A DNA stretch of 64,000 bases from a bacterium (GTDB lineage Bacteria; Hinthialibacterota; Hinthialibacteria; Hinthialibacterales; Hinthialibacteraceae): contig WGLV01000013.1 in assembly GCA_016125385.1 (NCBI GenBank), forward strand, positions 26,006-90,005. The letters run 5' to 3'. A program made the translations under genes and the position numbers. The notes beneath the pieces were generated by a model that saw nothing but the letters and a program-made list of their open reading frames with translations, ran no database searches and had not been told where the DNA came from. Numbering within the stretch: the stretch's first letter is position 1; each line of letters opens with the position of its first letter. This document shows, piece after piece, positions 50,909-57,721 of this stretch.

Positions 50909-52378
50909 TTACACGAAGCGCATGGCGTTGGCGATGGCGAAACGGCGGCGGCGGCTGAAGGTTTTTGGCGTACAGGGGCCCTCGCCTGACTTGCCCGCGA
51001 TGGTGAAGGCGGTGTATCCCTCGCCTCCATTGCCGAGGCAGGCGCCGCACGACGAATTGGCGACGAACAGGTTGCAGTCCATCAACTGAGCGAATTCGGT
51101 AATGCGGTCGATGCGCTGGGTATGAATAATGGCGGTATGTTTAAAGCCATGCTCGGCGTGGTGAGCGGCCTGAATGGCTTCTTCATAGCTGTTGCAGCGC
51201 ACGATGCCGAGCAGCGGAATCATCAACTCGTGAACGATGAAGGGATGATCGCGGCCGACTTCGGCGATCAGCAGATCGCAATTCGATGAAACCGTCACGC
51301 CAACCGCCTGCTGCGCGACGTAGGATGCATCCTTGCCGATATAGTCTTTATTGACGTGATCGTCAGGCGTGATGACGGCGCGCGTCATTGCTTCGGTCTG
51401 CTGGCGGTCGAGGAGGTAAGCGCCGCGCTGACGAATGGCGGCGAGAAATTCGTCATACACCGCCGATACGACAAAGCAGGATTTTTCGGTAATACAGGGC
51501 AGGTTGTTATCGAAACTGGAGCCTTCATACACGCTGACGGCGGCGTGTCCCACGTTGGCGGTTTCATCGACCACTACCGGGGGGTTGCCGGGACCGGCGA
51601 CGATGGCGCGTTTGGGGCTTTCCATCGCGGCGCGCACGACGGCCGGGCCGCCGGTGACCACCAGCAGCGAGATGTCGTCATGCGTCATGATCACTTTGGC
51701 GGTCTTGAGGGTGGGCTCGCTGACCGAGGTCATCAGGTTGGCGGGCGCGCCCGCCGCGGTCAGCGCGCGGTTGATCTCCTGCATCGATTGCAGGGTGCAT
51801 TGCACGGCGTTGGGATGCGGACCGAATACGATGGTATTGCCCGCTGAGAGCATCGCGATGGAATGGTTAATCACCGTCGCCACCGGATTGGTGGTGGGAG
51901 TGATAGTGCCGATCACGCCGAAGGGGGTGTATTCCTCCAGCATCATGCCTTTATCGCCGGTCTGGCAGTAGGTCGAGAGTTCTTCGGGGCCGGGCGTCAG
52001 TTCATACGCCAGCCGGTTTTTGATTTCCTTGTGGGAGGCGCGGCCCATGTTGGTGTCGCGCACGGTCATCTCGGCCCATTCGTGGTTGCGCTGTTTAGAC
52101 AGATCGCGAATGATCTGGATGTAACGTTTGCGCTCGCTGAGCGGAACCTTTGACCAGCGGGTAAAGGCCTGTTTCGCGGCGGCGATGGCGTCTTCGATCG
52201 AGTTAAACACGCCGTCGCGCCCGCCGCTGACCGCGCCGCCCATGCAGGTGGCGACGTGACCGCGCGGGGCGGTTGCGCCTTGCGGCTGGGTTTGCAGTTC
52301 GCTGAGAACGCGTCTTACGATTTCGGCGATTCGCTGGTCGTCCATCGGGATTCCGCTCCTGAACGGGAATTCTTTCAC
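50909..52378 (-). CDS. CoA-acylating aldehyde dehydrogenase of the EutE/PduP type, with N-terminal encapsulation-peptide-like helix
   Basis: 489 aa ALDH-superfamily fold with catalytic Cys region. N-terminus MDDQRIAEIVRRVLSELQ is an amphipathic helix of the kind that targets PduP/EutE into microcompartments. Co-located with pduL and a BMC-H gene. Confidence 0.85.
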   Translation of the reverse strand: MKEFPFRSGIPMDDQRIAEIVRRVLSELQTQPQGATAPRGHVATCMGGAVSGGRDGVFNSIEDAIAAAKQAFTRWSKVPLSERKRYIQIIRDLSKQRNHEWAEMTVRDTNMGRASHKEIKNRLAYELTPGPEELSTYCQTGDKGMMLEEYTPFGVIGTITPTTNPVATVINHSIAMLSAGNTIVFGPHPNAVQCTLQSMQEINRALTAAGAPANLMTSVSEPTLKTAKVIMTHDDISLLVVTGGPAVVRAAMESPKRAIVAGPGNPPVVVDETANVGHAAVSVYEGSSFDNNLPCITEKSCFVVSAVYDEFLAAIRQRGAYLLDRQQTEAMTRAVITPDDHVNKDYIGKDASYVAQQAVGVTVSSNCDLLIAEVGRDHPFIVHELMIPLLGIVRCNSYEEAIQAAHHAEHGFKHTAIIHTQRIDRITEFAQLMDCNLFVANSSCGACLGNGGEGYTAFTIAGKSGEGPCTPKTFSRRRRFAIANAMRFV

Positions 52379-52394: not shown

Positions 52395-53282
52395 TTATTT
52401 TTGCGGGACGATAACCACTTCGATGCCCCGCCGCGTGAGTTTTTCCATCGCCAGCGGAGTAATCAATCCGCCCCGAACGGCTTTTACCACGGGGCCTTTG
52501 AGTTTGTCGGCGTCTTCTTCGGTGATGATATACGTAATCAGATCGGGACTCTCGCTGTCGGCCTTGTTGGTCGCGGCGCGGTGCGTCTCTTTCAGCGCGT
52601 CCGGCGCGGGCAGCAGTTTCACTCCCATTTTGCTCAACTGGTTGCGATACCCGTCGAGAACCTCCTGCACGCCGGGCACGTTGTTGCCGAACACGATGCA
52701 GGCGTCTTTGGCGAGCCCCTCCGTCGACGCAATGGTCGGGACCTTATGCGCCAGCGCGGCGAGGTTGACCTTGAGCGCGTGGTCATCGGTGATGGCCAGC
52801 GCCAGCTTGGCGGCGTGGTTCCGGCACACCGACGGCATATAAACCGCCGCGTAACGGCTCATGTCGAGCCGCAGGGCCTGAATCTCATCCTTGCACTTGA
52901 TCAGCCGGATTCCGAGGCCGTTCAGCTCGGCCTCCGTGAACGCGCCGGGCGCGTCGGCGGAAAAAATCGCCTCAATAGTAACGCCTTCTTCGCGCCACAG
53001 GCGAAACGTTTTCTGATGAATATCCCACGGTTCACGCGCGCCGGTCAGAATCAGCAACACCGCCGGGCCGTCGAGGGGCGATGGAGCCGGAGCGGCCGCG
53101 CCTGATTTGGACTCCACAGTCTCGCCGCCGCATGAGCATGAACACGCCGGACTCTTGCAGGCGTTCGCGTCGATGGTTTCGGCGGCGCTGGGCGGAAGCA
53201 GGGTCGATTCGCCGCGCTGTTGCTCGGCGAGCGCCTTTTTGACCTCTTCAATGATGATGCGTTCCAGCTCGCGCGCGTCCAT
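52395..53282 (-). CDS. Microcompartment-locus protein of unknown function: encapsulation-peptide-like N-terminus, Cys-rich linker, Rossmann/flavoprotein-like alpha/beta domain
   Basis: N-terminus MDARELERIIIEEVKKALAEQQ (amphipathic helix), then CKSPACSCSCGG. The C-terminal domain has alternating beta-alpha pattern (AVLLILTGAREPW...; ...GIEVVIVPQK) weakly reminiscent of PF02441 flavoprotein folds. Confidence 0.4.
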   Translation of the reverse strand: MDARELERIIIEEVKKALAEQQRGESTLLPPSAAETIDANACKSPACSCSCGGETVESKSGAAAPAPSPLDGPAVLLILTGAREPWDIHQKTFRLWREEGVTIEAIFSADAPGAFTEAELNGLGIRLIKCKDEIQALRLDMSRYAAVYMPSVCRNHAAKLALAITDDHALKVNLAALAHKVPTIASTEGLAKDACIVFGNNVPGVQEVLDGYRNQLSKMGVKLLPAPDALKETHRAATNKADSESPDLITYIITEEDADKLKGPVVKAVRGGLITPLAMEKLTRRGIEVVIVPQK

Positions 53283-53407: not shown

Positions 53408-54118
53408 TCAGGGGAGAATTTCAACCATCTCGCCGCCGCGCAACCCGCAGGCGTTGCCGTCGTCGGTATCGAGATGCATTTCGTCTTTAAACAGGTCGAG
53501 CACGCGAATCTGGCATTCTTCCAGAATGGTTTTCTTGCCGTTGGCTTCAATGCGAACCCGAACGCTCTGATTGTCGCTCAACCCCCATTTTTTCGCCGAT
53601 TCCACCGAAATGTGAATGTGGCGGTTAGCGAGAATCACGCCCTTCTGAAGGTGCAACACGCCATGAGGCCCGACGAGAATCAGTTTTTCGCTATTGGTAT
53701 GGTCGCCCGAACGGTTCACCGGCGGATCGATGCCCAGATAGATGGCGTCGGTACGCGAGACCTCCACCTGAGTGTATTTGCGCAACGGCCCCAGAATACG
53801 GACTTCGCCCAGGCAGCGCATGCGCGGCCCGACCAGCGTCAGCGTCTGCTTTGACGCGAATTCACCGGTCTGGTAGAGGGGGCGCAATACTTCCAGCTCG
53901 GAACCTGGCCCGTACAGCGCGTCCATGCTTTTCCGGTCGAGGTGAATGTGCCGGACGGAGATATTACAGGGGACCAGCATCTTGCCGCCCGGCGCTGACG
54001 CCGGTGGCGTGGAGGCGAGTTCGCCCTGCAGCCGCGCCACTACGCGGCGCGTGATCTGCTCAACCAGGGCGTCGTTCAGATTCGGGGAAGACATACCTGC
54101 AATTTCCCTTCGATCCAC
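53408..54118 (-). CDS. pduL: Phosphate propanoyl/acetyl-transferase PduL (PTAC) with N-terminal encapsulation-peptide-like helix
   Basis: Two PduL half-repeats containing the RH(I/V)H motif (ISVRHIHLDRKSMDAL and ANRHIHISVESAKKWGL). N-terminal LNDALVEQITRRVVARLQ amphipathic helix. Confidence 0.85.
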   Translation of the reverse strand: MDRREIAGMSSPNLNDALVEQITRRVVARLQGELASTPPASAPGGKMLVPCNISVRHIHLDRKSMDALYGPGSELEVLRPLYQTGEFASKQTLTLVGPRMRCLGEVRILGPLRKYTQVEVSRTDAIYLGIDPPVNRSGDHTNSEKLILVGPHGVLHLQKGVILANRHIHISVESAKKWGLSDNQSVRVRIEANGKKTILEECQIRVLDLFKDEMHLDTDDGNACGLRGGEMVEILP

Positions 54119-54207: not shown

Positions 54208-54253
54208 AAAACAATTACAGATAAACCAAGCGTGGCTGAGCGGCCACGCTTGG
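54208..54253 (-). terminator. Intrinsic terminator/attenuator directly downstream of the BMC-H shell gene (minus strand)
   Basis: 10-11 bp perfect inverted repeat CCAAGCGTGGC...GCCACGCTTGG (54226..54253) followed, in the minus-strand reading direction, by TTTATCTGTAATTGTTTT. Confidence 0.5.
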
Positions 54254-54318: not shown

Positions 54319-54612
54319 TCAGCCTTTCGCGGGCAGAATGGCTTCCAGGTCCGAATGAGGACGCGGAATGACGTGAACCGAAACGACTTCGCCCACTTTG
54401 CGGGCCGCCGCCGCGCCAGCGTCCGTCGCGGCTTTCACCGCGCCGACGTCGCCGCGCACCATCACGGTCACGAAACCACCGCCGATTTTTTCCTTGCCGA
54501 TGAGCGTAACGCTCGCCGCTTTCACCATCGCATCGGCCGCTTCAATAGCGCCGACCAGACCGCGTGTTTCAACCAGGCCAAGAGCTTTCCCTTCCACGGG
54601 AATATCCTCCAT
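54319..54612 (-). CDS. Bacterial microcompartment hexameric shell protein (BMC-H; PduA/EutM/CcmK family)
   Basis: 97 aa. [60 protein letters not shown] is an almost textbook BMC (Pfam PF00936) domain. Confidence 0.92.
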
Positions 54613-54731: not shown

Positions 54732-55715
54732 TCAGCCAGCCGGTTCCGCCGAAAATCCGGTTAATTCCGGCGATTTTGGGGATCCGGCGTTTTCCACCCG
54801 GCGCCAGACCGCGTCTCTCACCACCAGCGGCAAGGGGGCGTCTTCAATCGAGGGGTGGCGCGGCGCGGCGGAGTCGATCTTGTCGAGCGTGAATGCGTCG
54901 ATGGGCGCATCGAGCGACGCGGGATCGCTCAGATCGGGCCCGTCCAGGTGAACCGCCGACACGCCCTCTTCATGCGAATAAAAAAGATAGCGCGTCAGAA
55001 CCGCGCCGTCTTCAATCGGGCGCAGCTCTTTCAGATCGATCGGCATCTGCAGGATGAGGTCCTCACGCAATCCGGGGCGTTCCATGCGCGGCCGGCGATG
55101 CAGAAACAGGCAGGTCGCGTGCTCGTTTTTCACCGCGTTATCGACGACGAACACCGCGCCCGGCGGCAGCAGACGAATAAAACGCAACGTCAGATCGGAT
55201 CGCTCGGCAATTTTGCGGATCGAATCGCCCGAAAGCTGTTCCGATTCAAGCCGCTTGAGATGCCGAGGGCGCCAGAGCGACGCAATCCATACCGGGGCCG
55301 CCACCGTGACCAGCGCCGAACCGGGGTAAGCAAACCACCACGGAACGCGCAACATGCGCAAGATCAACACGCTTACGGCATGGGCCAGCATCACCCAGGT
55401 GATCATGTCTTTCAGGTCTTCCATATACGATCGGCGATCGGCGGCAGGCCAGAATACGTTCATCAAGGTGCGCAGAATCGCTGAAAACCAGAAAAAAGCA
55501 TAATGCAGTTCTTCCACCCAGTCCGGATACAGAACGAAGCGGCTGGTATCGGCCATCGCCAATCCGCCACCCATACGAATGAATGCTTCCATCACGTAAT
55601 TGATTTGAAGCGACGAGCCAACGACGATGCAGAGGAATACCCAGATCAACATAAGCGAACAGGTCGAGCCCGGCTCGATTCCCCCCTGAATAGTATGGAC
55701 ATAAACCGAACTCAC
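54732..55715 (-). CDS. Hypothetical membrane protein
   Basis: 327-aa ORF with several hydrophobic segments in the N-terminal half (LMLIWVFLCIVVG; ITWVMLAHAVSVLIL; LVTVAAPVWIASL) and no recognised motif. Immediately upstream, on the same strand, of the BMC-H gene. Confidence 0.4.
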   Translation of the reverse strand: MSSVYVHTIQGGIEPGSTCSLMLIWVFLCIVVGSSLQINYVMEAFIRMGGGLAMADTSRFVLYPDWVEELHYAFFWFSAILRTLMNVFWPAADRRSYMEDLKDMITWVMLAHAVSVLILRMLRVPWWFAYPGSALVTVAAPVWIASLWRPRHLKRLESEQLSGDSIRKIAERSDLTLRFIRLLPPGAVFVVDNAVKNEHATCLFLHRRPRMERPGLREDLILQMPIDLKELRPIEDGAVLTRYLFYSHEEGVSAVHLDGPDLSDPASLDAPIDAFTLDKIDSAAPRHPSIEDAPLPLVVRDAVWRRVENAGSPKSPELTGFSAEPAG

Positions 55716-55719
55716 CGGC

Positions 55720-56220
55720 TCAGCGGCGGCGGTCGTCCGAAGGCAACAACATTCTCATGCGGCGGACCACTTCATCTTCATTACGAATATCCGCCGCGAT
55801 TGTTTTCGCGTAATAATCCTCCGCCTTGTCGCGTACTCCCAACAGCGCGTAAGCGTCGGCGAGACGGAGAAACAGGATGGGCTGATTGGGCGAGAGGCGC
55901 AGCGCTTCCTGATATTTTTCCACGGAGAGTTTTAAAAAGGGAATCTGGGCGTTGCGATTATCGAACAGAAACGCTTTGACGAAATACTTGTCGCCCAGTT
56001 GCAGATACGTGACCGACCGTTCGCGCAGGTCCGACGATTGGCTGGAGAGAAGGGCGTCCAGTTGTTCGATCTCCTGATTGATCGTCTCTTTACTGGCGCT
56101 GCGGACTTCGCTGAGAATGAATACGGGCGTCGGCAGGGGTTTTTCCCACCGCAACGCTTCCACGCACGTCCAACCGAAGACGAGCCAGATCACGCCGAGT
56201 ATCACGTATAAAAAGCGCAT
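55720..56220 (-). CDS. Membrane-anchored TPR-like repeat protein (hypothetical)
   Basis: 166 aa. N-terminal TM helix (FLYVILGVIWLVFGW), then TPR-like helical pairs (YLQLGDKYFVKAF...; LADAYALLGVRDKAEDYY). Confidence 0.4.
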   Translation of the reverse strand: MRFLYVILGVIWLVFGWTCVEALRWEKPLPTPVFILSEVRSASKETINQEIEQLDALLSSQSSDLRERSVTYLQLGDKYFVKAFLFDNRNAQIPFLKLSVEKYQEALRLSPNQPILFLRLADAYALLGVRDKAEDYYAKTIAADIRNEDEVVRRMRMLLPSDDRRR

Positions 56221-56344: not shown

Positions 56345-57721
56345 ATGGAACAATATCACAAGCGCCGTTACAATGAACGACTGGAATACCGTACCTCCGG
56401 GGAGAAACCGATGACCGTTATGGATTTGCCCGTCATTCAGCCCACGCGCGTCAAGCCGCTGCAGTCGGTGTTAATCAAACCGACCGGCGCCGACTGCAAC
56501 CTCGATTGCGTCTACTGCTTCTACCTCGAAAAAGCCGAGCTCTACCCCAACGCCAAAGTCCATCGCATGAGCGTCGAAGTGTTGGAAGAAATGGTCCGCC
56601 AGATTATGAACGACGGCGGACAGCAGGTGTCGTTCGGCTGGCAGGGCGGCGAACCCACCATGATGGGAGTCGATTTTTTTCGCAAGGCGGTTGAATTCCA
56701 ACAGAAGTACGGCCGGCGCGGCCAGGTGGTCGGCAACGGCCTGCAAACCAACGGCCTGCTGATTAACGAAGAATGGTGCGAATTTCTTCGGGAATACCAG
56801 TTTCTGGTGGGGCTGTCGCTCGACGGGCCTGAACACATTCACGACAAATACCGTTTCACCAAGGGCGGTCGCCCCTCGTGGGAACGCGTGCGCGAATCGG
56901 GACGACTGATGCTCGACCGGGGCGTCGCGGTCAACGCGCTGGTGGTGGTCAACGATTATTCGTGCAACTACGCCGATGAAATCTATGATTTTCATAAAGA
57001 CATGGGGTTTGAATTCATGCAGTTCATCCCCTGCGTCGAACTCGATCACGCCGACTCAAGCCGAGCGGCGTCCTGGTCGGTTTCGGCGGAGCAGTACGGG
57101 CGTTTTCTCTGCGATATCTTCGACCGCTGGAAGGCCGATTTCCGCGATGGAAAACCCACGACCTCTGTCCGCTGGATCGATTCGGTCTTTCACACCTACG
57201 TCGGTATGCAGCCGCCGGAATGCACTCTGTTGCAGGAATGCGGATGTTACGTGGTGGTCGAACACAACGGCGACATCTATTCATGCGACTTCTTCGTCGA
57301 ACCCGAGTGGAAACTGGGTAACCTGACCGAAGGCCGCATCATTGAGATGCTCAACAGCGAGCGTCAGCAGGAATTCGGCGTATGGAAATCGAAACTGCCG
57401 CCTGAATGCCCCGAATGCCAGTGGTTGACGCACTGCTGGGGCGGTTGCACCAAGGACCGGCTGCGCGATCCGCATGACCGGGGTTCGAATCACTTTTGCC
57501 AGTCATACATCATGTTCTTTGAGCACGCCGACGCCGAATTACGGCGGCTGGCCGACGAATGGCTGGAAAACCAGCAACGCGAACACGACGCCGCCGAGCG
57601 CCGTCTGCGCGAGCTGCGTCAATCCGTATCCGCCTCAACGCCCCCGGCGCCCGAGGTGGGACGAAACGAGCCCTGCCCCTGCGGCAGCGGCAAAAAATAT
57701 AAAAAATGCTGTGGAAAATGA
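56345..57721 (+). CDS. Radical SAM / SPASM-domain maturase (anaerobic sulfatase-maturating-enzyme-like) with C-terminal SEC-C zinc-finger motif
   Basis: CNLDCVYCFY (CxxxCxxC radical-SAM cluster). Multiple downstream Cys clusters of a SPASM domain (CTLLQECGC...SCDFF; CPECQWLTHCWGGC). The last 20 aa, EPCPCGSGKKYKKCCGK, match the SecA C-terminal SEC-C motif. An alternative start is at 56411 (MTVMDLPV). Confidence 0.8.
   Translation: MEQYHKRRYNERLEYRTSGEKPMTVMDLPVIQPTRVKPLQSVLIKPTGADCNLDCVYCFYLEKAELYPNAKVHRMSVEVLEEMVRQIMNDGGQQVSFGWQGGEPTMMGVDFFRKAVEFQQKYGRRGQVVGNGLQTNGLLINEEWCEFLREYQFLVGLSLDGPEHIHDKYRFTKGGRPSWERVRESGRLMLDRGVAVNALVVVNDYSCNYADEIYDFHKDMGFEFMQFIPCVELDHADSSRAASWSVSAEQYGRFLCDIFDRWKADFRDGKPTTSVRWIDSVFHTYVGMQPPECTLLQECGCYVVVEHNGDIYSCDFFVEPEWKLGNLTEGRIIEMLNSERQQEFGVWKSKLPPECPECQWLTHCWGGCTKDRLRDPHDRGSNHFCQSYIMFFEHADAELRRLADEWLENQQREHDAAERRLRELRQSVSASTPPAPEVGRNEPCPCGSGKKYKKCCGK

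What the first reader, a model, noticed from the sequence alone, without database searches (positions are those of the whole stretch)
52395..53282. Unknown 295-aa microcompartment cargo candidate with encapsulation peptide, Cys-rich CSCSCGG linker and Rossmann-like domain
This protein is located between pduL and the aldehyde dehydrogenase. It carries an N-terminal amphipathic helix like the neighbouring encapsulated enzymes, then CKSPACSCSCGGETVE (possible metal or Fe-S site), then an alpha/beta domain with weak flavoprotein-like character (VLLILTGAREPW...GVTIEAIFSADAPGAF). It matches none of the standard BMC accessory proteins I can recall (PduS, PduO, PduX, EutJ, EutT, acetate kinase, aldolase). 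It could be a cofactor (NAD/CoA) recycling or redox partner specific to this BMC type.
Basis: inference. Interest (0 to 1): 0.55.

Follow-up and report, generated by a model that had tools for sequence, protein, structure and literature searches.

The report
PduM-like microcompartment flavoprotein with cysteine motif
The gene is real and encodes a targeted component of a bacterial microcompartment, but it is a divergent member of an already catalogued, functionally uncharacterised family of microcompartment "flavoproteins" related to the structural protein PduM, not a new kind of cargo.

Summary
The 295-aa ORF exists at 52395-53282, on the minus strand, between PduL and an acylating aldehyde dehydrogenase and downstream of a BMC-H shell gene. 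The order BMC-H > PduL > X > AldDh recurs in all 18 related MAG loci whose contig covers the four genes. These MAGs are labelled "bacterium" or "Ca. Omnitrophota". The N-terminal amphipathic helix is conserved. The central domain has the PF02441 (HFCD/UbiX-like) flavoprotein fold. The "CSCSCGG" run is clade-specific, and only a C-x4-C pair is conserved.

The protein is not an unknown class. Profile searches tie it to at least 421 clusters of 240-290-aa proteins with the same plan: targeting helix, flavoprotein fold and a C-terminal "IITPLA(R/K)D" module. These sit next to PduL in FRAG-like, GRM and PDU loci, and the 2021 BMC catalog lists such proteins as "pfam02441 flavoprotein" (PvmL).

The C-terminal module also occurs in PduM, EutQ and EutT. 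E. coli PduM matches both ends of the family profile.

The best reading is a PduM-type core-to-shell adaptor built on a probably FMN-binding body. An added redox role through the conserved cysteines is possible but unproven. The catalytic His of HFCD decarboxylases is absent.

The parts
52395..53282 (-). Gene X: 295-aa EP-bearing flavoprotein-fold protein (PduM/PvmL/TIGR02536-related)
   Evidence: The ORF is listed. Homologs: 35-44 full-length proteins. Synteny is conserved in 18 related loci.
53202..53282 (-). Residues 1-27: N-terminal amphipathic helix, a putative encapsulation peptide (LERIIIEEVKKALAE)
   Evidence: AF2 predicts a helix at 3-27 with pLDDT 87-90. I9 and E13 are invariant, and E7, R8, E12, V14, K16, L18 and E20 are at least 90% conserved. 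The hydrophobic moment is 0.67; family N-termini have a median of 0.61 against 0.45 for internal control segments. The neighbouring PduL and AldDh carry similar N-terminal helices.
53130..53201 (-). Residues 28-51: subfamily-specific conserved motif (L/F)PPxQxET(L/I)DxxAC(K/R/Q)(G/S)PxC, extended to C-x4-C-x-C-x-C in this clade
   Evidence: P30, T36, D38, A41 and C47 are at least 90% conserved and C42 is invariant. The C-x4-C pair sits at a fixed position in all X-family members. pLDDT is below 50.
53067..53129 (-). Residues 52-72: variable Pro/Ala/Ser-rich linker
   Evidence: Length and sequence vary across the family. The model is low-confidence here: residues 42-62 have pLDDT below 50, and the 61-70 block averages 62.
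52554..53066 (-). Residues 73-243: PF02441-type (HFCD/UbiX/DmrB-like) flavoprotein-fold domain. Its motifs are LTGA (79-82), FSxxA (107-111) and PSVCRNHAAKLALAITD (150-166).
   Evidence: Foldseek against the PDB gives E = 6e-8 and TM 0.6-0.74 to UbiX, EpiD, TvaF, PPC decarboxylase and DmrB. Of 33 family members, 27 match PF02441 at E <= 1. hhalign against E. coli Dfp/CoaC gives probability 90.8%.
52671..52724 (-). Residues 187-204: loop after strand 5 carrying C195. In most relatives it reads C-x-x-C-G-N-x-V-P-G; here C198 is replaced by F.
   Evidence: C195 is invariant. C198 is present in 34 of the 40 family members where the motifs could be parsed. It is lost in the window clade, which has S153>C plus extra linker Cys, and in P0031 and P0047, which have H156>C.
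52398..52553 (-). Residues 244-295: C-terminal beta-alpha-beta module ITEEDAxKLKGPVVKAVRGGLITPLAMEKLxxRGIEVVIVP, shared with the PduM C-terminus and the EutQ and EutT N-termini
   Evidence: These are the most conserved residues of the broad family: T275 in 177 of 180 sequences and A278 in 174 of 180. The module HMM scores 21.7 bits on E. coli EutT and 18-20 bits on EutQ, and hhalign gives probability 94.8% for EutQ. The family HMM scores 26.3 bits on the E. coli PduM C-terminus.
53408..54118 (-). PduL-type phosphotransacylase with an N-terminal EP-like helix, the upstream neighbour
   Evidence: PF06130 at 210 bits and PRK15070 at 221 bits.
50909..52378 (-). CoA-acylating-type aldehyde dehydrogenase with an N-terminal EP-like helix, the downstream neighbour
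   Evidence: PF00171, and PRK15398 at 575 bits. The hydrophobic moment is 0.81.
54319..54612 (-). BMC-H shell protein, the first gene of the cassette
   Evidence: PF00936 at 102 bits. It is 91-97% identical across related loci.
54226..54253 (-). Conserved terminator-like hairpin between BMC-H and PduL
   Evidence: An 11-bp stem followed by a T-rich tail. The same stem sequence recurs in most related loci, with changes on both sides of the stem in some.

Best explanation
X is an encapsulated accessory protein of an aldehyde-oxidising metabolosome. It belongs to the family of BMC-associated PF02441 'flavoproteins' (PvmL, TIGR02536, the FRAG6/7 flavoprotein). The analysis here indicates that PduM is a shortened relative of this family.

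Proposed mechanism:
1. The N-terminal amphipathic helix (residues 1-27) takes the protein into the enzyme core together with PduL and AldDh, which carry similar helices.
2. The flavoprotein-fold body (73-243) probably oligomerises as a trimer, as HFCD-fold proteins do, and probably still binds FMN.
3. The C-terminal beta-alpha-beta module (244-295), the same module as in the PduM C-terminus and the EutQ and EutT N-termini, docks onto the shell (BMC-H). The protein would thus tie the cargo core to the shell.
4. The conserved cysteines (linker C-x4-C plus the loop C-x-x-C) may add a metal, Fe-S or disulfide centre next to the flavin, giving a secondary electron-relay role.

Shown here: the gene, its synteny, the fold, the shared modules and their conservation. 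Inferred: encapsulation, trimerisation, FMN binding, shell docking and any redox chemistry.
For: Gene and synteny:
- The order BMC-H > PduL > X > AldDh holds in all 18 related loci whose contig covers the four genes, and their flanks differ from one another.
- The broad family is adjacent to PduL in FRAG-like (L022, L025, L029), GRM (L030: PTAC > flavoprotein > AldDh > BMC-P) and PDU loci. In L031 the gene occupies the pduM slot between pduL and pduN.

Fold:
- Foldseek gives E = 6e-8.
- 27 of 33 family members match PF02441 at E <= 1.
- hhalign of the family profile against E. coli CoaC gives probability 90.8%.
- The three FMN-site motifs of PF02441 proteins are kept as TG, S108-x-x-A111 and P150..R154-N/T..K159..D166; several of these positions are invariant.

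Shared modules and fusions:
- The encapsulation peptide is conserved and amphipathic.
- The C-terminal module matches EutT, EutQ and PduM. E. coli PduM scores 35.2 bits against the family HMM, split between the N-terminal EP and the C-terminal module; the best of 500 shuffles scores 8.0.
- Fusion proteins exist: PduL fused to the flavoprotein-like domain (P0085), and the flavoprotein-like domain fused to BMC-P (P0132).

Literature:
- The PduM N-terminus (residues 1-23) is a core-targeting signal, and loss of PduM partly separates core and shell (PMC12108088).
- EutQ binds the BMC-H protein EutM only when its N-terminal 100 residues are present and free (PMC4827028).
- A predicted trimer-on-trimer complex pairs a TIGR02536 protein with EutL (PMC13181095).
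Against: - There is no experimental data for this protein or any flavoprotein-type member.
- The window protein itself gives no Pfam or NCBIfam hit. Only its relatives and profiles do.
- The C-terminal module is modelled with low confidence, pLDDT about 50.
- The X-only profile against PduM is weak: hhalign E = 0.015, probability 3%.
- Strong conservation of the FMN-type motifs and cysteines would be unnecessary for a purely structural adaptor.
- Which surface of which shell protein is bound is unknown.
- No BMC-P or BMC-T gene lies in the window or within 10 kb of the related loci, so the complete organelle was not seen here.
Confidence: 0.5

Rival explanations
1. The protein is primarily a redox protein. 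It would be an encapsulated FMN protein, possibly with a Cys-ligated Fe-S or metal centre or a disulfide relay. It would re-oxidise the NADH made by AldDh, or accept electrons from another carrier, and pass them toward or through the shell. In this minimal cassette it would replace the alcohol dehydrogenase or MNdh(PduS)/BMC-T(SE) module.
For: - The cassette, and the annotated 10-kb flanks of L001 and L004, contain no alcohol dehydrogenase or PduS/PduT.
- FMN-site motifs are conserved.
- C42-x4-C47 is invariant or nearly so, and the loop reads C195-x-x-C198-G. Where C198 is lost, new cysteines appear in the linker and at positions 153 or 156.
- The structural neighbours DmrB and AfpA are electron-transfer flavoproteins.
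- The literature speculates that BMC pfam02441 proteins are electron shuttles or acceptors (PMC4207490, PMC11626177).
Against: - There is no recognisable NAD(P)H-binding element, and HFCD-fold proteins are not known NADH dehydrogenases.
- The window protein lacks the second loop cysteine.
- Broad-family members often have no cysteines at all, and PduM has lost the flavin motifs. The function shared by the whole family therefore cannot be redox.
- The family co-occurs with PduS/PduT in GRM and PDU loci, so it does not simply substitute for them.
- No model coordinates were available to check whether the cysteines lie near the flavin site.
Confidence: 0.3
2. The protein is a catalytic HFCD- or UbiX-type enzyme working inside the compartment on a thiol or CoA-related substrate. 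Examples would be a phosphopantothenoylcysteine-decarboxylase-like or flavin-prenyltransferase-like activity.
For: The best structural matches are UbiX, EpiD, TvaF and PPC decarboxylase. The family profile aligns to E. coli CoaC. CoA is the cofactor recycled by the neighbouring PduL and AldDh.
Against: - The catalytic His of HFCD enzymes (Dfp His75) aligns to Leu/Ile137, and no conserved His exists in that region of the family.
- The PxMNxxMW substrate motif is absent; a Cys-containing loop takes its place.
- The UbiX alignment is not significant, at probability 0.6%.
- Identity to all solved homologs is 9-17%.
Confidence: 0.05
3. The protein is a housekeeping flavoprotein that only happens to lie between BMC genes and has no role in the compartment.
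For: The window protein has no significant family hit of its own.
Against: - Synteny is identical in 18 divergent related loci with otherwise unrelated flanks.
- The N-terminal EP-like helix is conserved.
- The C-terminal module occurs otherwise in the BMC proteins PduM, EutQ and EutT.
- Fusions to PduL and to BMC-P exist.
Confidence: 0.02

Closest known systems
BMC-associated pfam02441 flavoproteins (PvmL of the PVM microcompartment; the flavoprotein of FRAG6/FRAG7 loci in Ca. Hydrogenedentes; GRM3 and EUT2B/D flavoproteins; NCBIfam TIGR02536 'eut_hyp')
   Same: - The fold is the same and the genes sit in shell/PTAC/AldDh loci. The FRAG7 description (BMC-H, AldDh, PTAC, pfam02441 flavoprotein, BMC-P triplet elsewhere) is close to this cassette (PMC8217296, supplementary file 6).
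- Remote members found here (L022, P0062, P0092) pass the PF02441 threshold. They share the EP, the P-x-L-T-R-N-T-A-A-K-L-A-L-G-I-x-D motif and the C-terminal IITPLA(R/K)D module.
   Different: - The X subfamily (about 44 proteins) is divergent. Only 2 of the 8 members examined individually pass the Pfam threshold, and the window protein gives no hit.
- It carries a conserved C-x4-C motif and a long linker after the EP that other members lack.
- No PduS/PduT pair lies nearby, unlike FRAG7.
- No function is established for any member.
PduM (structural protein of the Pdu microcompartment; TIGR04493, PRK15428, PF15953)
   Same: - It has an N-terminal core-targeting helix and the same C-terminal module.
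- The gene lies immediately after pduL.
- E. coli PduM scores 35.2 bits against the family HMM.
- In a Propionibacteriaceae pdu operon a flavoprotein-type member sits in the pduM slot.
   Different: - PduM is 163 aa and lacks the FMN-type motifs and most of the alpha/beta domain.
- X's own profile matches PduM only weakly (hhalign E = 0.015). In NCBIfam, 9 of 33 relatives hit the PduM model at E <= 1, and the window protein does not.
EutQ and EutT N-terminal ~45-residue module
   Same: The beta-alpha-beta 'ITxxDI...IITPxAR(E/D)' motif is the same. In EutQ the N-terminal 100 residues are required for binding the BMC-H protein EutM (PMC4827028).
   Different: In EutQ and EutT the module is N-terminal and attached to a cupin domain or an adenosyltransferase domain. 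Here it is C-terminal to a flavoprotein fold.
HFCD flavoenzymes and UbiX (EpiD, CoaC/Dfp, AtHAL3a, TvaF, UbiX) and DmrB/AfpA
   Same: They share the Rossmann-like flavoprotein fold and FMN-phosphate-binding-type motifs.
   Different: X lacks the catalytic His and the PxMNxxMW motif. Identity is 9-17%. X has extra N- and C-terminal BMC modules.
MNdh (PduS) with BMC-T(SE) (PduT), the NAD+-recycling module
   Same: This would be a functional analogue only if X proves to be a flavin plus Cys-cluster electron relay at the shell.
   Different: They are not homologous. X has no Complex1_51K, SLBB or Fer4 domains. MNdh co-occurs with family members in GRM and PDU loci.

Membership tests
BMC-associated PF02441 flavoprotein family (PvmL / TIGR02536 / FRAG6-7 flavoprotein) | PF02441-type flavoprotein fold | tested here: met
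   Foldseek against the PDB gives E = 6e-8 to UbiX and HFCD structures, with TM up to 0.74. Of 33 relatives, 27 match PF02441 at E <= 1. The family profile against E. coli CoaC gives probability 90.8%.
BMC-associated PF02441 flavoprotein family (PvmL / TIGR02536 / FRAG6-7 flavoprotein) | The protein's own sequence scores above the Pfam or NCBIfam family threshold | tested here: not met
   The window protein has no PF02441 or TIGR02536 hit at E <= 0.1 or E <= 1 respectively. Relatives P0028 and P0022 just pass the Pfam gathering score.
BMC-associated PF02441 flavoprotein family (PvmL / TIGR02536 / FRAG6-7 flavoprotein) | Encoded within a BMC locus next to shell, PTAC or AldDh genes | tested here: met
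   All 18 related loci whose contig covers the four genes keep the order BMC-H > PduL > X > AldDh. Broad-family members lie next to PTAC in FRAG-like, GRM and PDU loci.
BMC-associated PF02441 flavoprotein family (PvmL / TIGR02536 / FRAG6-7 flavoprotein) | Binds flavin (FMN) | not testable with these tools
   FMN-site-type motifs are conserved. No cofactor can be shown from sequence alone.
PduM family (TIGR04493 / PRK15428 / PF15953) | N-terminal core-targeting signal helix | tested here: met
   The amphipathic helix at residues 3-27 is conserved. The family HMM aligns its N-terminus to PduM residues 2-48.
PduM family (TIGR04493 / PRK15428 / PF15953) | PduM-type C-terminal region | tested here: inconclusive
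   The broad-family HMM scores 26.3 bits on PduM residues 119-162, against 8.0 for the best of 500 shuffles of the whole protein. The X-only profile gives hhalign E = 0.015 and probability 3%. Of 33 X-family members, 9 hit PRK15428 at E <= 1 (best 7e-4), and the window protein does not.
PduM family (TIGR04493 / PRK15428 / PF15953) | About 160-aa protein without a cofactor-binding domain | tested here: not met
   X is 295 aa and has a complete flavoprotein-fold domain.
HFCD decarboxylases (EpiD, CoaC/Dfp, AtHAL3a) | Active-site His (Dfp His75, EpiD His67) | tested here: not met
   Dfp His75 aligns to X Leu137. No His is conserved in residues 130-146 of the family.
HFCD decarboxylases (EpiD, CoaC/Dfp, AtHAL3a) | PxMNxxMW substrate-binding motif | tested here: not met
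   The motif is absent from the sequence. The equivalent loop is ASTEGLAKDACIVFGNNVPG.
UbiX flavin prenyltransferases | Sequence-profile similarity to UbiX, including the DMAP-binding residues | tested here: not met
   hhalign against E. coli UbiX gives probability 0.6%. Only the fold is similar.
MNdh/PduS NADH dehydrogenase | Complex1_51K/SLBB NADH-FMN domain plus two 4Fe-4S motifs | tested here: not met
   X has no such Pfam domains. These domains are present in separate genes of L030 and L031.

The most novel reading that the evidence does not exclude
X would be a shell-docked flavin plus four-cysteine (Fe-S, metal or disulfide-relay) electron conduit. It would regenerate NAD+, or otherwise vent reducing equivalents, for a minimal three-enzyme metabolosome. 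That would be a third solution to BMC cofactor recycling, alongside alcohol dehydrogenase and MNdh/BMC-T(SE). PduM, currently described as having no homologs outside Pdu compartments, would then be the degenerate, cofactor-less relic of this ancestral redox adaptor.
Probability: 0.15. Interest if true: 0.7.

Novelty: new variant of a known kind. Interest (0 to 1): 0.4.

Why it matters
Flavoprotein-type genes have been noted in many microcompartment loci for a decade, and none has an assigned function. PduM is experimentally important for core-shell attachment but has been described as having no known sequence homology to proteins outside Pdu MCPs (PMC12108088).

The comparisons made here place X, the catalogued pfam02441 BMC flavoproteins, TIGR02536 and PduM in one architectural family: targeting helix, a flavoprotein-derived body, and a module shared with EutQ and EutT. 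If that holds, it gives a concrete and testable model for how cargo cores are tied to shells across BMC types.

It also nominates the C-terminal module as a portable shell-binding tag. The lineage-specific cysteine motif offers a handle for testing whether some members have a redox role as well.

Tried and rejected
- Direct Pfam and NCBIfam scans of the window protein gave nothing except a spurious glutamate dehydrogenase match to the C-terminal beta-alpha-beta module at E = 0.011.
- A profile search of PDB sequences gave the same GDH artefact and no flavoprotein.
- hhalign of the shallow X-only alignment against single E. coli Dfp and UbiX sequences in global mode failed. A broader 180-sequence family profile was needed.
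- The idea that C198 corresponds to the active-site Cys of PPC decarboxylase ('ACGD') was dropped. The Cys loop follows strand 5, which is the PxMN position, not the C-terminal clamp.
- The neighbouring radical-SAM/SPASM gene was considered as a possible modifier of the Cys-rich linker. It was set aside because it is a bona fide anaerobic sulfatase maturase (TIGR03942, 436 bits). It is adjacent in only the window plus two other distinct related loci (L004/L010 and L019), and it lies on the opposite strand. This fits a sulfatase-rich OLB16/Hinthialibacterota-like organism (PMC9324843), but that taxonomy was not verified.
- tblastn with E. coli EutN, EutL, EutS and EutK found no BMC-P or BMC-T in the window or in the flanks of related loci.
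- The last word-indexed protein search, with a remote-member profile, mostly recovered Poribacteria relatives of the first query sequence, not named proteins from cultured organisms.
- The first E. coli hit for pduC was the dha glycerol dehydratase island, and the second strain had a frameshifted pduM. A third strain supplied an intact PduM.
Full report
**1. Observation**

The ORF listing shows an ATG-initiated 295-aa ORF at 52395-53282 on the minus strand. The plus-strand translation of the same interval is full of stops.

The ORF is the third of four co-directional genes:
- BMC-H, 54319-54612 (PF00936).
- PduL/PTAC, 53408-54118 (PF06130, 210 bits; NCBIfam PRK15070).
- X, 52395-53282.
- An acylating-type aldehyde dehydrogenase, 50909-52378 (PF00171; PRK15398, 575 bits).

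Downstream on the other strand is rpmE. X itself matches no Pfam or NCBIfam family.

**2. X is a real, conserved gene**

A search of 5.8 billion proteins gave 35 full-length relatives at 44-70% identity. A profile search raised this to 44. All are 'hypothetical' proteins from MAGs labelled 'bacterium' or 'Candidatus Omnitrophota'.

In the alignment:
- In the N-terminal LERII-EEV-KALAE segment, I9 and E13 are invariant and E7, R8, E12, V14, K16, L18 and E20 are at least 90% conserved.
- A stretch after it, (L/F)PPxQxET(L/I)DxxAC(K/R/Q)(G/S)PxC, is conserved, with C42 invariant and C47 in at least 90% of sequences.
- The following 20-40 residues are Pro/Ala/Ser-rich and variable.
- The rest of the protein is well conserved.

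C49 and C51 occur only in the window's own clade.

**3. Synteny**

A scan of one genome per species (GTDB) found 20 loci. tblastn with the window's proteins showed the order BMC-H > PduL > X > AldDh in all 18 related loci whose contig covers the four genes, and their flanks differ from one another.

Identity to the window's proteins across the closely related loci (the three distant ones, L021, L022 and L024, set aside) is 91-97% for BMC-H, 62-79% for AldDh, 60-80% for PduL and 46-67% for X. X is therefore the fastest-evolving member.

No BMC-P or BMC-T gene lies in the window or within 10 kb of these loci. This is the pattern the 2021 BMC catalog calls a fragmented (FRAG) or satellite locus.

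**4. Fold**

The AlphaFold2 model, built from the 33-sequence alignment, has mean pLDDT 76.7:
- Helix at residues 3-27, pLDDT 87-90.
- Low-confidence (disordered-looking) stretch at about residues 28-72, with pLDDT below 50 for residues 42-62.
- Rossmann-like alpha/beta domain at 74-243, pLDDT about 90.
- Low-confidence beta-alpha-beta tail at 245-295.

Foldseek against the PDB returns UbiX, EpiD, TvaF, PPC decarboxylase (AtHAL3a, human) and DmrB, with E down to 6e-8, TM (target-normalised) 0.54-0.74 and identity 9-17%.

Scanned individually, 27 of 33 family members match PF02441 'Flavoprotein' at E <= 1, with a best value of 1.3e-5. A 180-sequence family profile aligns X residues 71-172 to E. 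coli Dfp/CoaC residues 4-110 with hhalign probability 90.8%.

In that alignment:
- The three FMN-site motifs of the family are recognisable: L-T-G-A, F-S-x-x-A and P-S-x-S/C-R-N/T-H-A-A-K-L-A-L-G/A-I-T-D. Many of these positions are invariant.
- The catalytic His75 of Dfp falls on Leu137.
- No His is conserved nearby.
- The PxMNxxMW motif is missing.
- UbiX does not align significantly.

X is thus not an HFCD decarboxylase or a UbiX enzyme.

**5. The wider family**

An exhaustive HMMER search of 1.84 billion representatives with the X profile found 421 clusters at E <= 1e-3 and 69 at E <= 1e-10. Most are 240-290 aa and match profile positions about 70-291.

Sampled members have:
- An N-terminal amphipathic helix.
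- A short linker.
- The flavoprotein domain with the motif P-x-L-T-R-N-T-A-A-K-L-A-L-G-I-x-D.
- Often a C-x-x-C in the loop after strand 5.
- A C-terminal (V/L)ITxxDI...IITPLA(R/K)DxAxxxGI module.

Several pass the PF02441 threshold; L022 scores 48 bits. They give sub-threshold but consistent NCBIfam hits to TIGR02536 ('eut_hyp', ethanolamine utilization protein of unknown function), CoaBC, AfpA/DmrB and PduM. Within the X family, 11 of 33 hit TIGR02536 and 9 of 33 hit PduM models at E <= 1.

Their contexts are BMC loci of several types:

| Locus | Gene order or content |
|---|---|
| L025 | TPR > BMC-H > PTAC > flavoprotein |
| L022, L029 | PfkB kinase > PTAC > rSAM/SPASM > flavoprotein |
| L030 | Glycyl-radical (GRM) locus, PTAC > flavoprotein > AldDh > BMC-P, also with PduS/PduT |
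| L031 | Propionibacteriaceae pdu operon; a 488-aa member occupies the pduM slot between pduL and pduN |

Fusion proteins exist: PduL fused to the flavoprotein-like domain (P0085), and the flavoprotein-like domain fused to BMC-P (P0132).

**6. The end modules**

*N-terminus.* The hydrophobic moment of X residues 4-17 is 0.67, against a shuffle mean of 0.48; 6% of shuffles reach it. Family N-termini have a median of 0.61, against 0.45 for internal control segments. PduL and AldDh in the same operon carry similar N-terminal helices followed by linkers.

*C-terminus.* An HMM of the last ~50 residues of the family matches the N-termini of E. coli EutT (21.7 bits) and EutQ (18-20 bits; hhalign probability 94.8%), and no other Eut protein.

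An intact E. coli PduM (L035) scores 35.2 bits against the full family HMM. This splits into 7.6 bits for the N-terminal helix and first strand and 26.3 bits for the C-terminal module. The best of 500 shuffles scores 8.0.

T275 and A278 of the 'TPLA' turn are the most conserved residues in the whole family, present in 177 and 174 of 180 sequences.

**7. Cysteines**

In 34 of the 40 X-family sequences where the motifs could be parsed, the pattern is linker C-x4-C plus loop C195-x-x-C198-G-N-x-V-P-G. The six that lack C198 fall into two groups:
- The window's clade (P0001-P0004) has F at 198. It gains extra linker cysteines (C-x-C-x-C, or an added C-x-C) and a Cys at position 153 in the FMN-type motif.
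- P0031 and P0047 gain a Cys at position 156.

This looks like relocation of a ligand or partner cysteine. That would suggest a four-cysteine metal or Fe-S site, or a disulfide relay, next to the presumed flavin site. It rests on two or three evolutionary events, and no coordinates were available to measure distances. Many broad-family members have no such cysteines.

**8. What the literature says**

- The BMC catalog describes FRAG6 and FRAG7 loci of Ca. Hydrogenedentes. These hold a BMC-H plus 'a pfam02441 flavoprotein'; FRAG7 also has AldDh, PTAC and a PduS/T pair, with the BMC-P triplet elsewhere. The catalog's table equates PF02441 with PvmL of the planctomycete PVM compartment (PMC8217296, supplementary files 6 and 17).
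- Earlier work noted flavoproteins in EUT2B/D and GRM3 loci as possible electron shuttles (PMC4207490).
- A 2024 study mentions pfam02441 proteins as possible acceptors for MNdh/BMC-T(SE), without evidence (PMC11626177).
[quoted passage not shown] Its residues 1-23 target the core, and its loss partly separates core and shell (PMC12108088).
- EutQ binds the BMC-H protein EutM only with its N-terminal 100 residues present and untagged (PMC4827028).
- A structure-prediction atlas proposes a trimer-on-trimer complex of the Listeria TIGR02536 protein with EutL (PMC13181095).
- OLB16/Hinthialibacterota, formerly filed under Omnitrophota, are sulfatase-rich and encode BMCs (PMC9324843). That would fit the sulfatase maturase next to the cassette. 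The window's taxonomy was not verified.

**9. Interpretation**

The most economical reading is that X is the local version of a widespread BMC accessory family whose shared elements are the two end modules. The N-terminal helix would go into the cargo core. The C-terminal module would contact the shell. A flavoprotein-derived body, probably trimeric, lies between them. This would make it a PduM-type core-to-shell adaptor (confidence about 0.5).

Conservation of the FMN-type motifs and of the cysteines in the X subfamily suggests the body is not inert. A flavin/cysteine redox function is a serious rival or add-on (about 0.3). One such function would be NAD+ regeneration, since the cassette has no alcohol dehydrogenase or PduS/T in the annotated flanks. 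A catalytic HFCD/UbiX role (0.05) and a non-BMC role (0.02) are disfavoured by the tests above.

**10. Novelty and score**

The X subfamily is a divergent variant, mostly below the Pfam threshold, with a conserved Cys motif and a long linker.

Both are testable. They rest on profile scores of 20-35 bits and on synteny, not on experiment. Interest is 0.4.

Noticed in passing
window 54226-54253 (minus strand), between BMC-H and PduL; also L001, L004-L007, L009, L011-L014, L016, L018-L020: A conserved terminator-like hairpin, CCAAGCGTGGC-loop-GCCACGCTTGG followed by a T-rich tail, sits directly after the BMC-H gene. The stem sequence recurs in most related loci, and some loci show changes on both sides of the stem (GCGCGGC/GCCGCGC, GGCGTGGC/GCCACGCC). 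It is probably a partial terminator that sets a high shell-to-enzyme expression ratio.
   Followed up: partly
window 54732-55715 and 55720-56220 (minus strand); L004/L010, L006, L007, L019: A 327-aa protein with no family hit and a small TPR protein lie immediately upstream of BMC-H. The 327-aa protein appears to have hydrophobic N-terminal segments, judged by reading the sequence only. It recurs, sometimes as two paralogs, upstream of the cassette in four other distinct related loci. It may be a regulator or transporter linked to the compartment.
   Followed up: partly
window 56345-57721 (plus strand): A radical-SAM/SPASM anaerobic sulfatase maturase (TIGR03942, 436 bits) carries a C-terminal SEC-C metal-binding motif and is divergently oriented from the TPR gene. 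It is adjacent to the cassette in two other distinct related loci (L004/L010 and L019). An unrelated rSAM/SPASM gene sits between PduL and the flavoprotein in L022 and L029.
   Followed up: partly
P0085 (470 aa), P0132 (358 aa), P0168 (488 aa; L031 8001-9467): Natural fusions or expansions of the family exist. P0085 is PduL fused to the flavoprotein-like domain. P0132 is the flavoprotein-like domain fused to a BMC-P vertex protein. P0168 is a long member sitting in the pduM position of a Propionibacteriaceae pdu operon.
   Followed up: partly
L035 13427-13918 (E. coli O8:H8 pduM); L034 20427-20917: E. coli PduM matches the BMC-flavoprotein family HMM at both its N-terminal signal helix and its C-terminal module, with 35.2 bits in total, although a 2025 paper states that it has no known homologs outside Pdu compartments. 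In strain E189 pduM is annotated as frameshifted.
   Followed up: partly
window 50909-52378 (minus strand): The AldDh ORF as listed starts at a GTG, 11 codons upstream of the Met that precedes the EP-like helix (MDDQRIAEIVRRVLSEL). The true start may be that internal ATG, which would put it about 50 nt downstream of X's stop codon (52395-52397), not the 16 nt implied by the listed GTG start.
   Followed up: no
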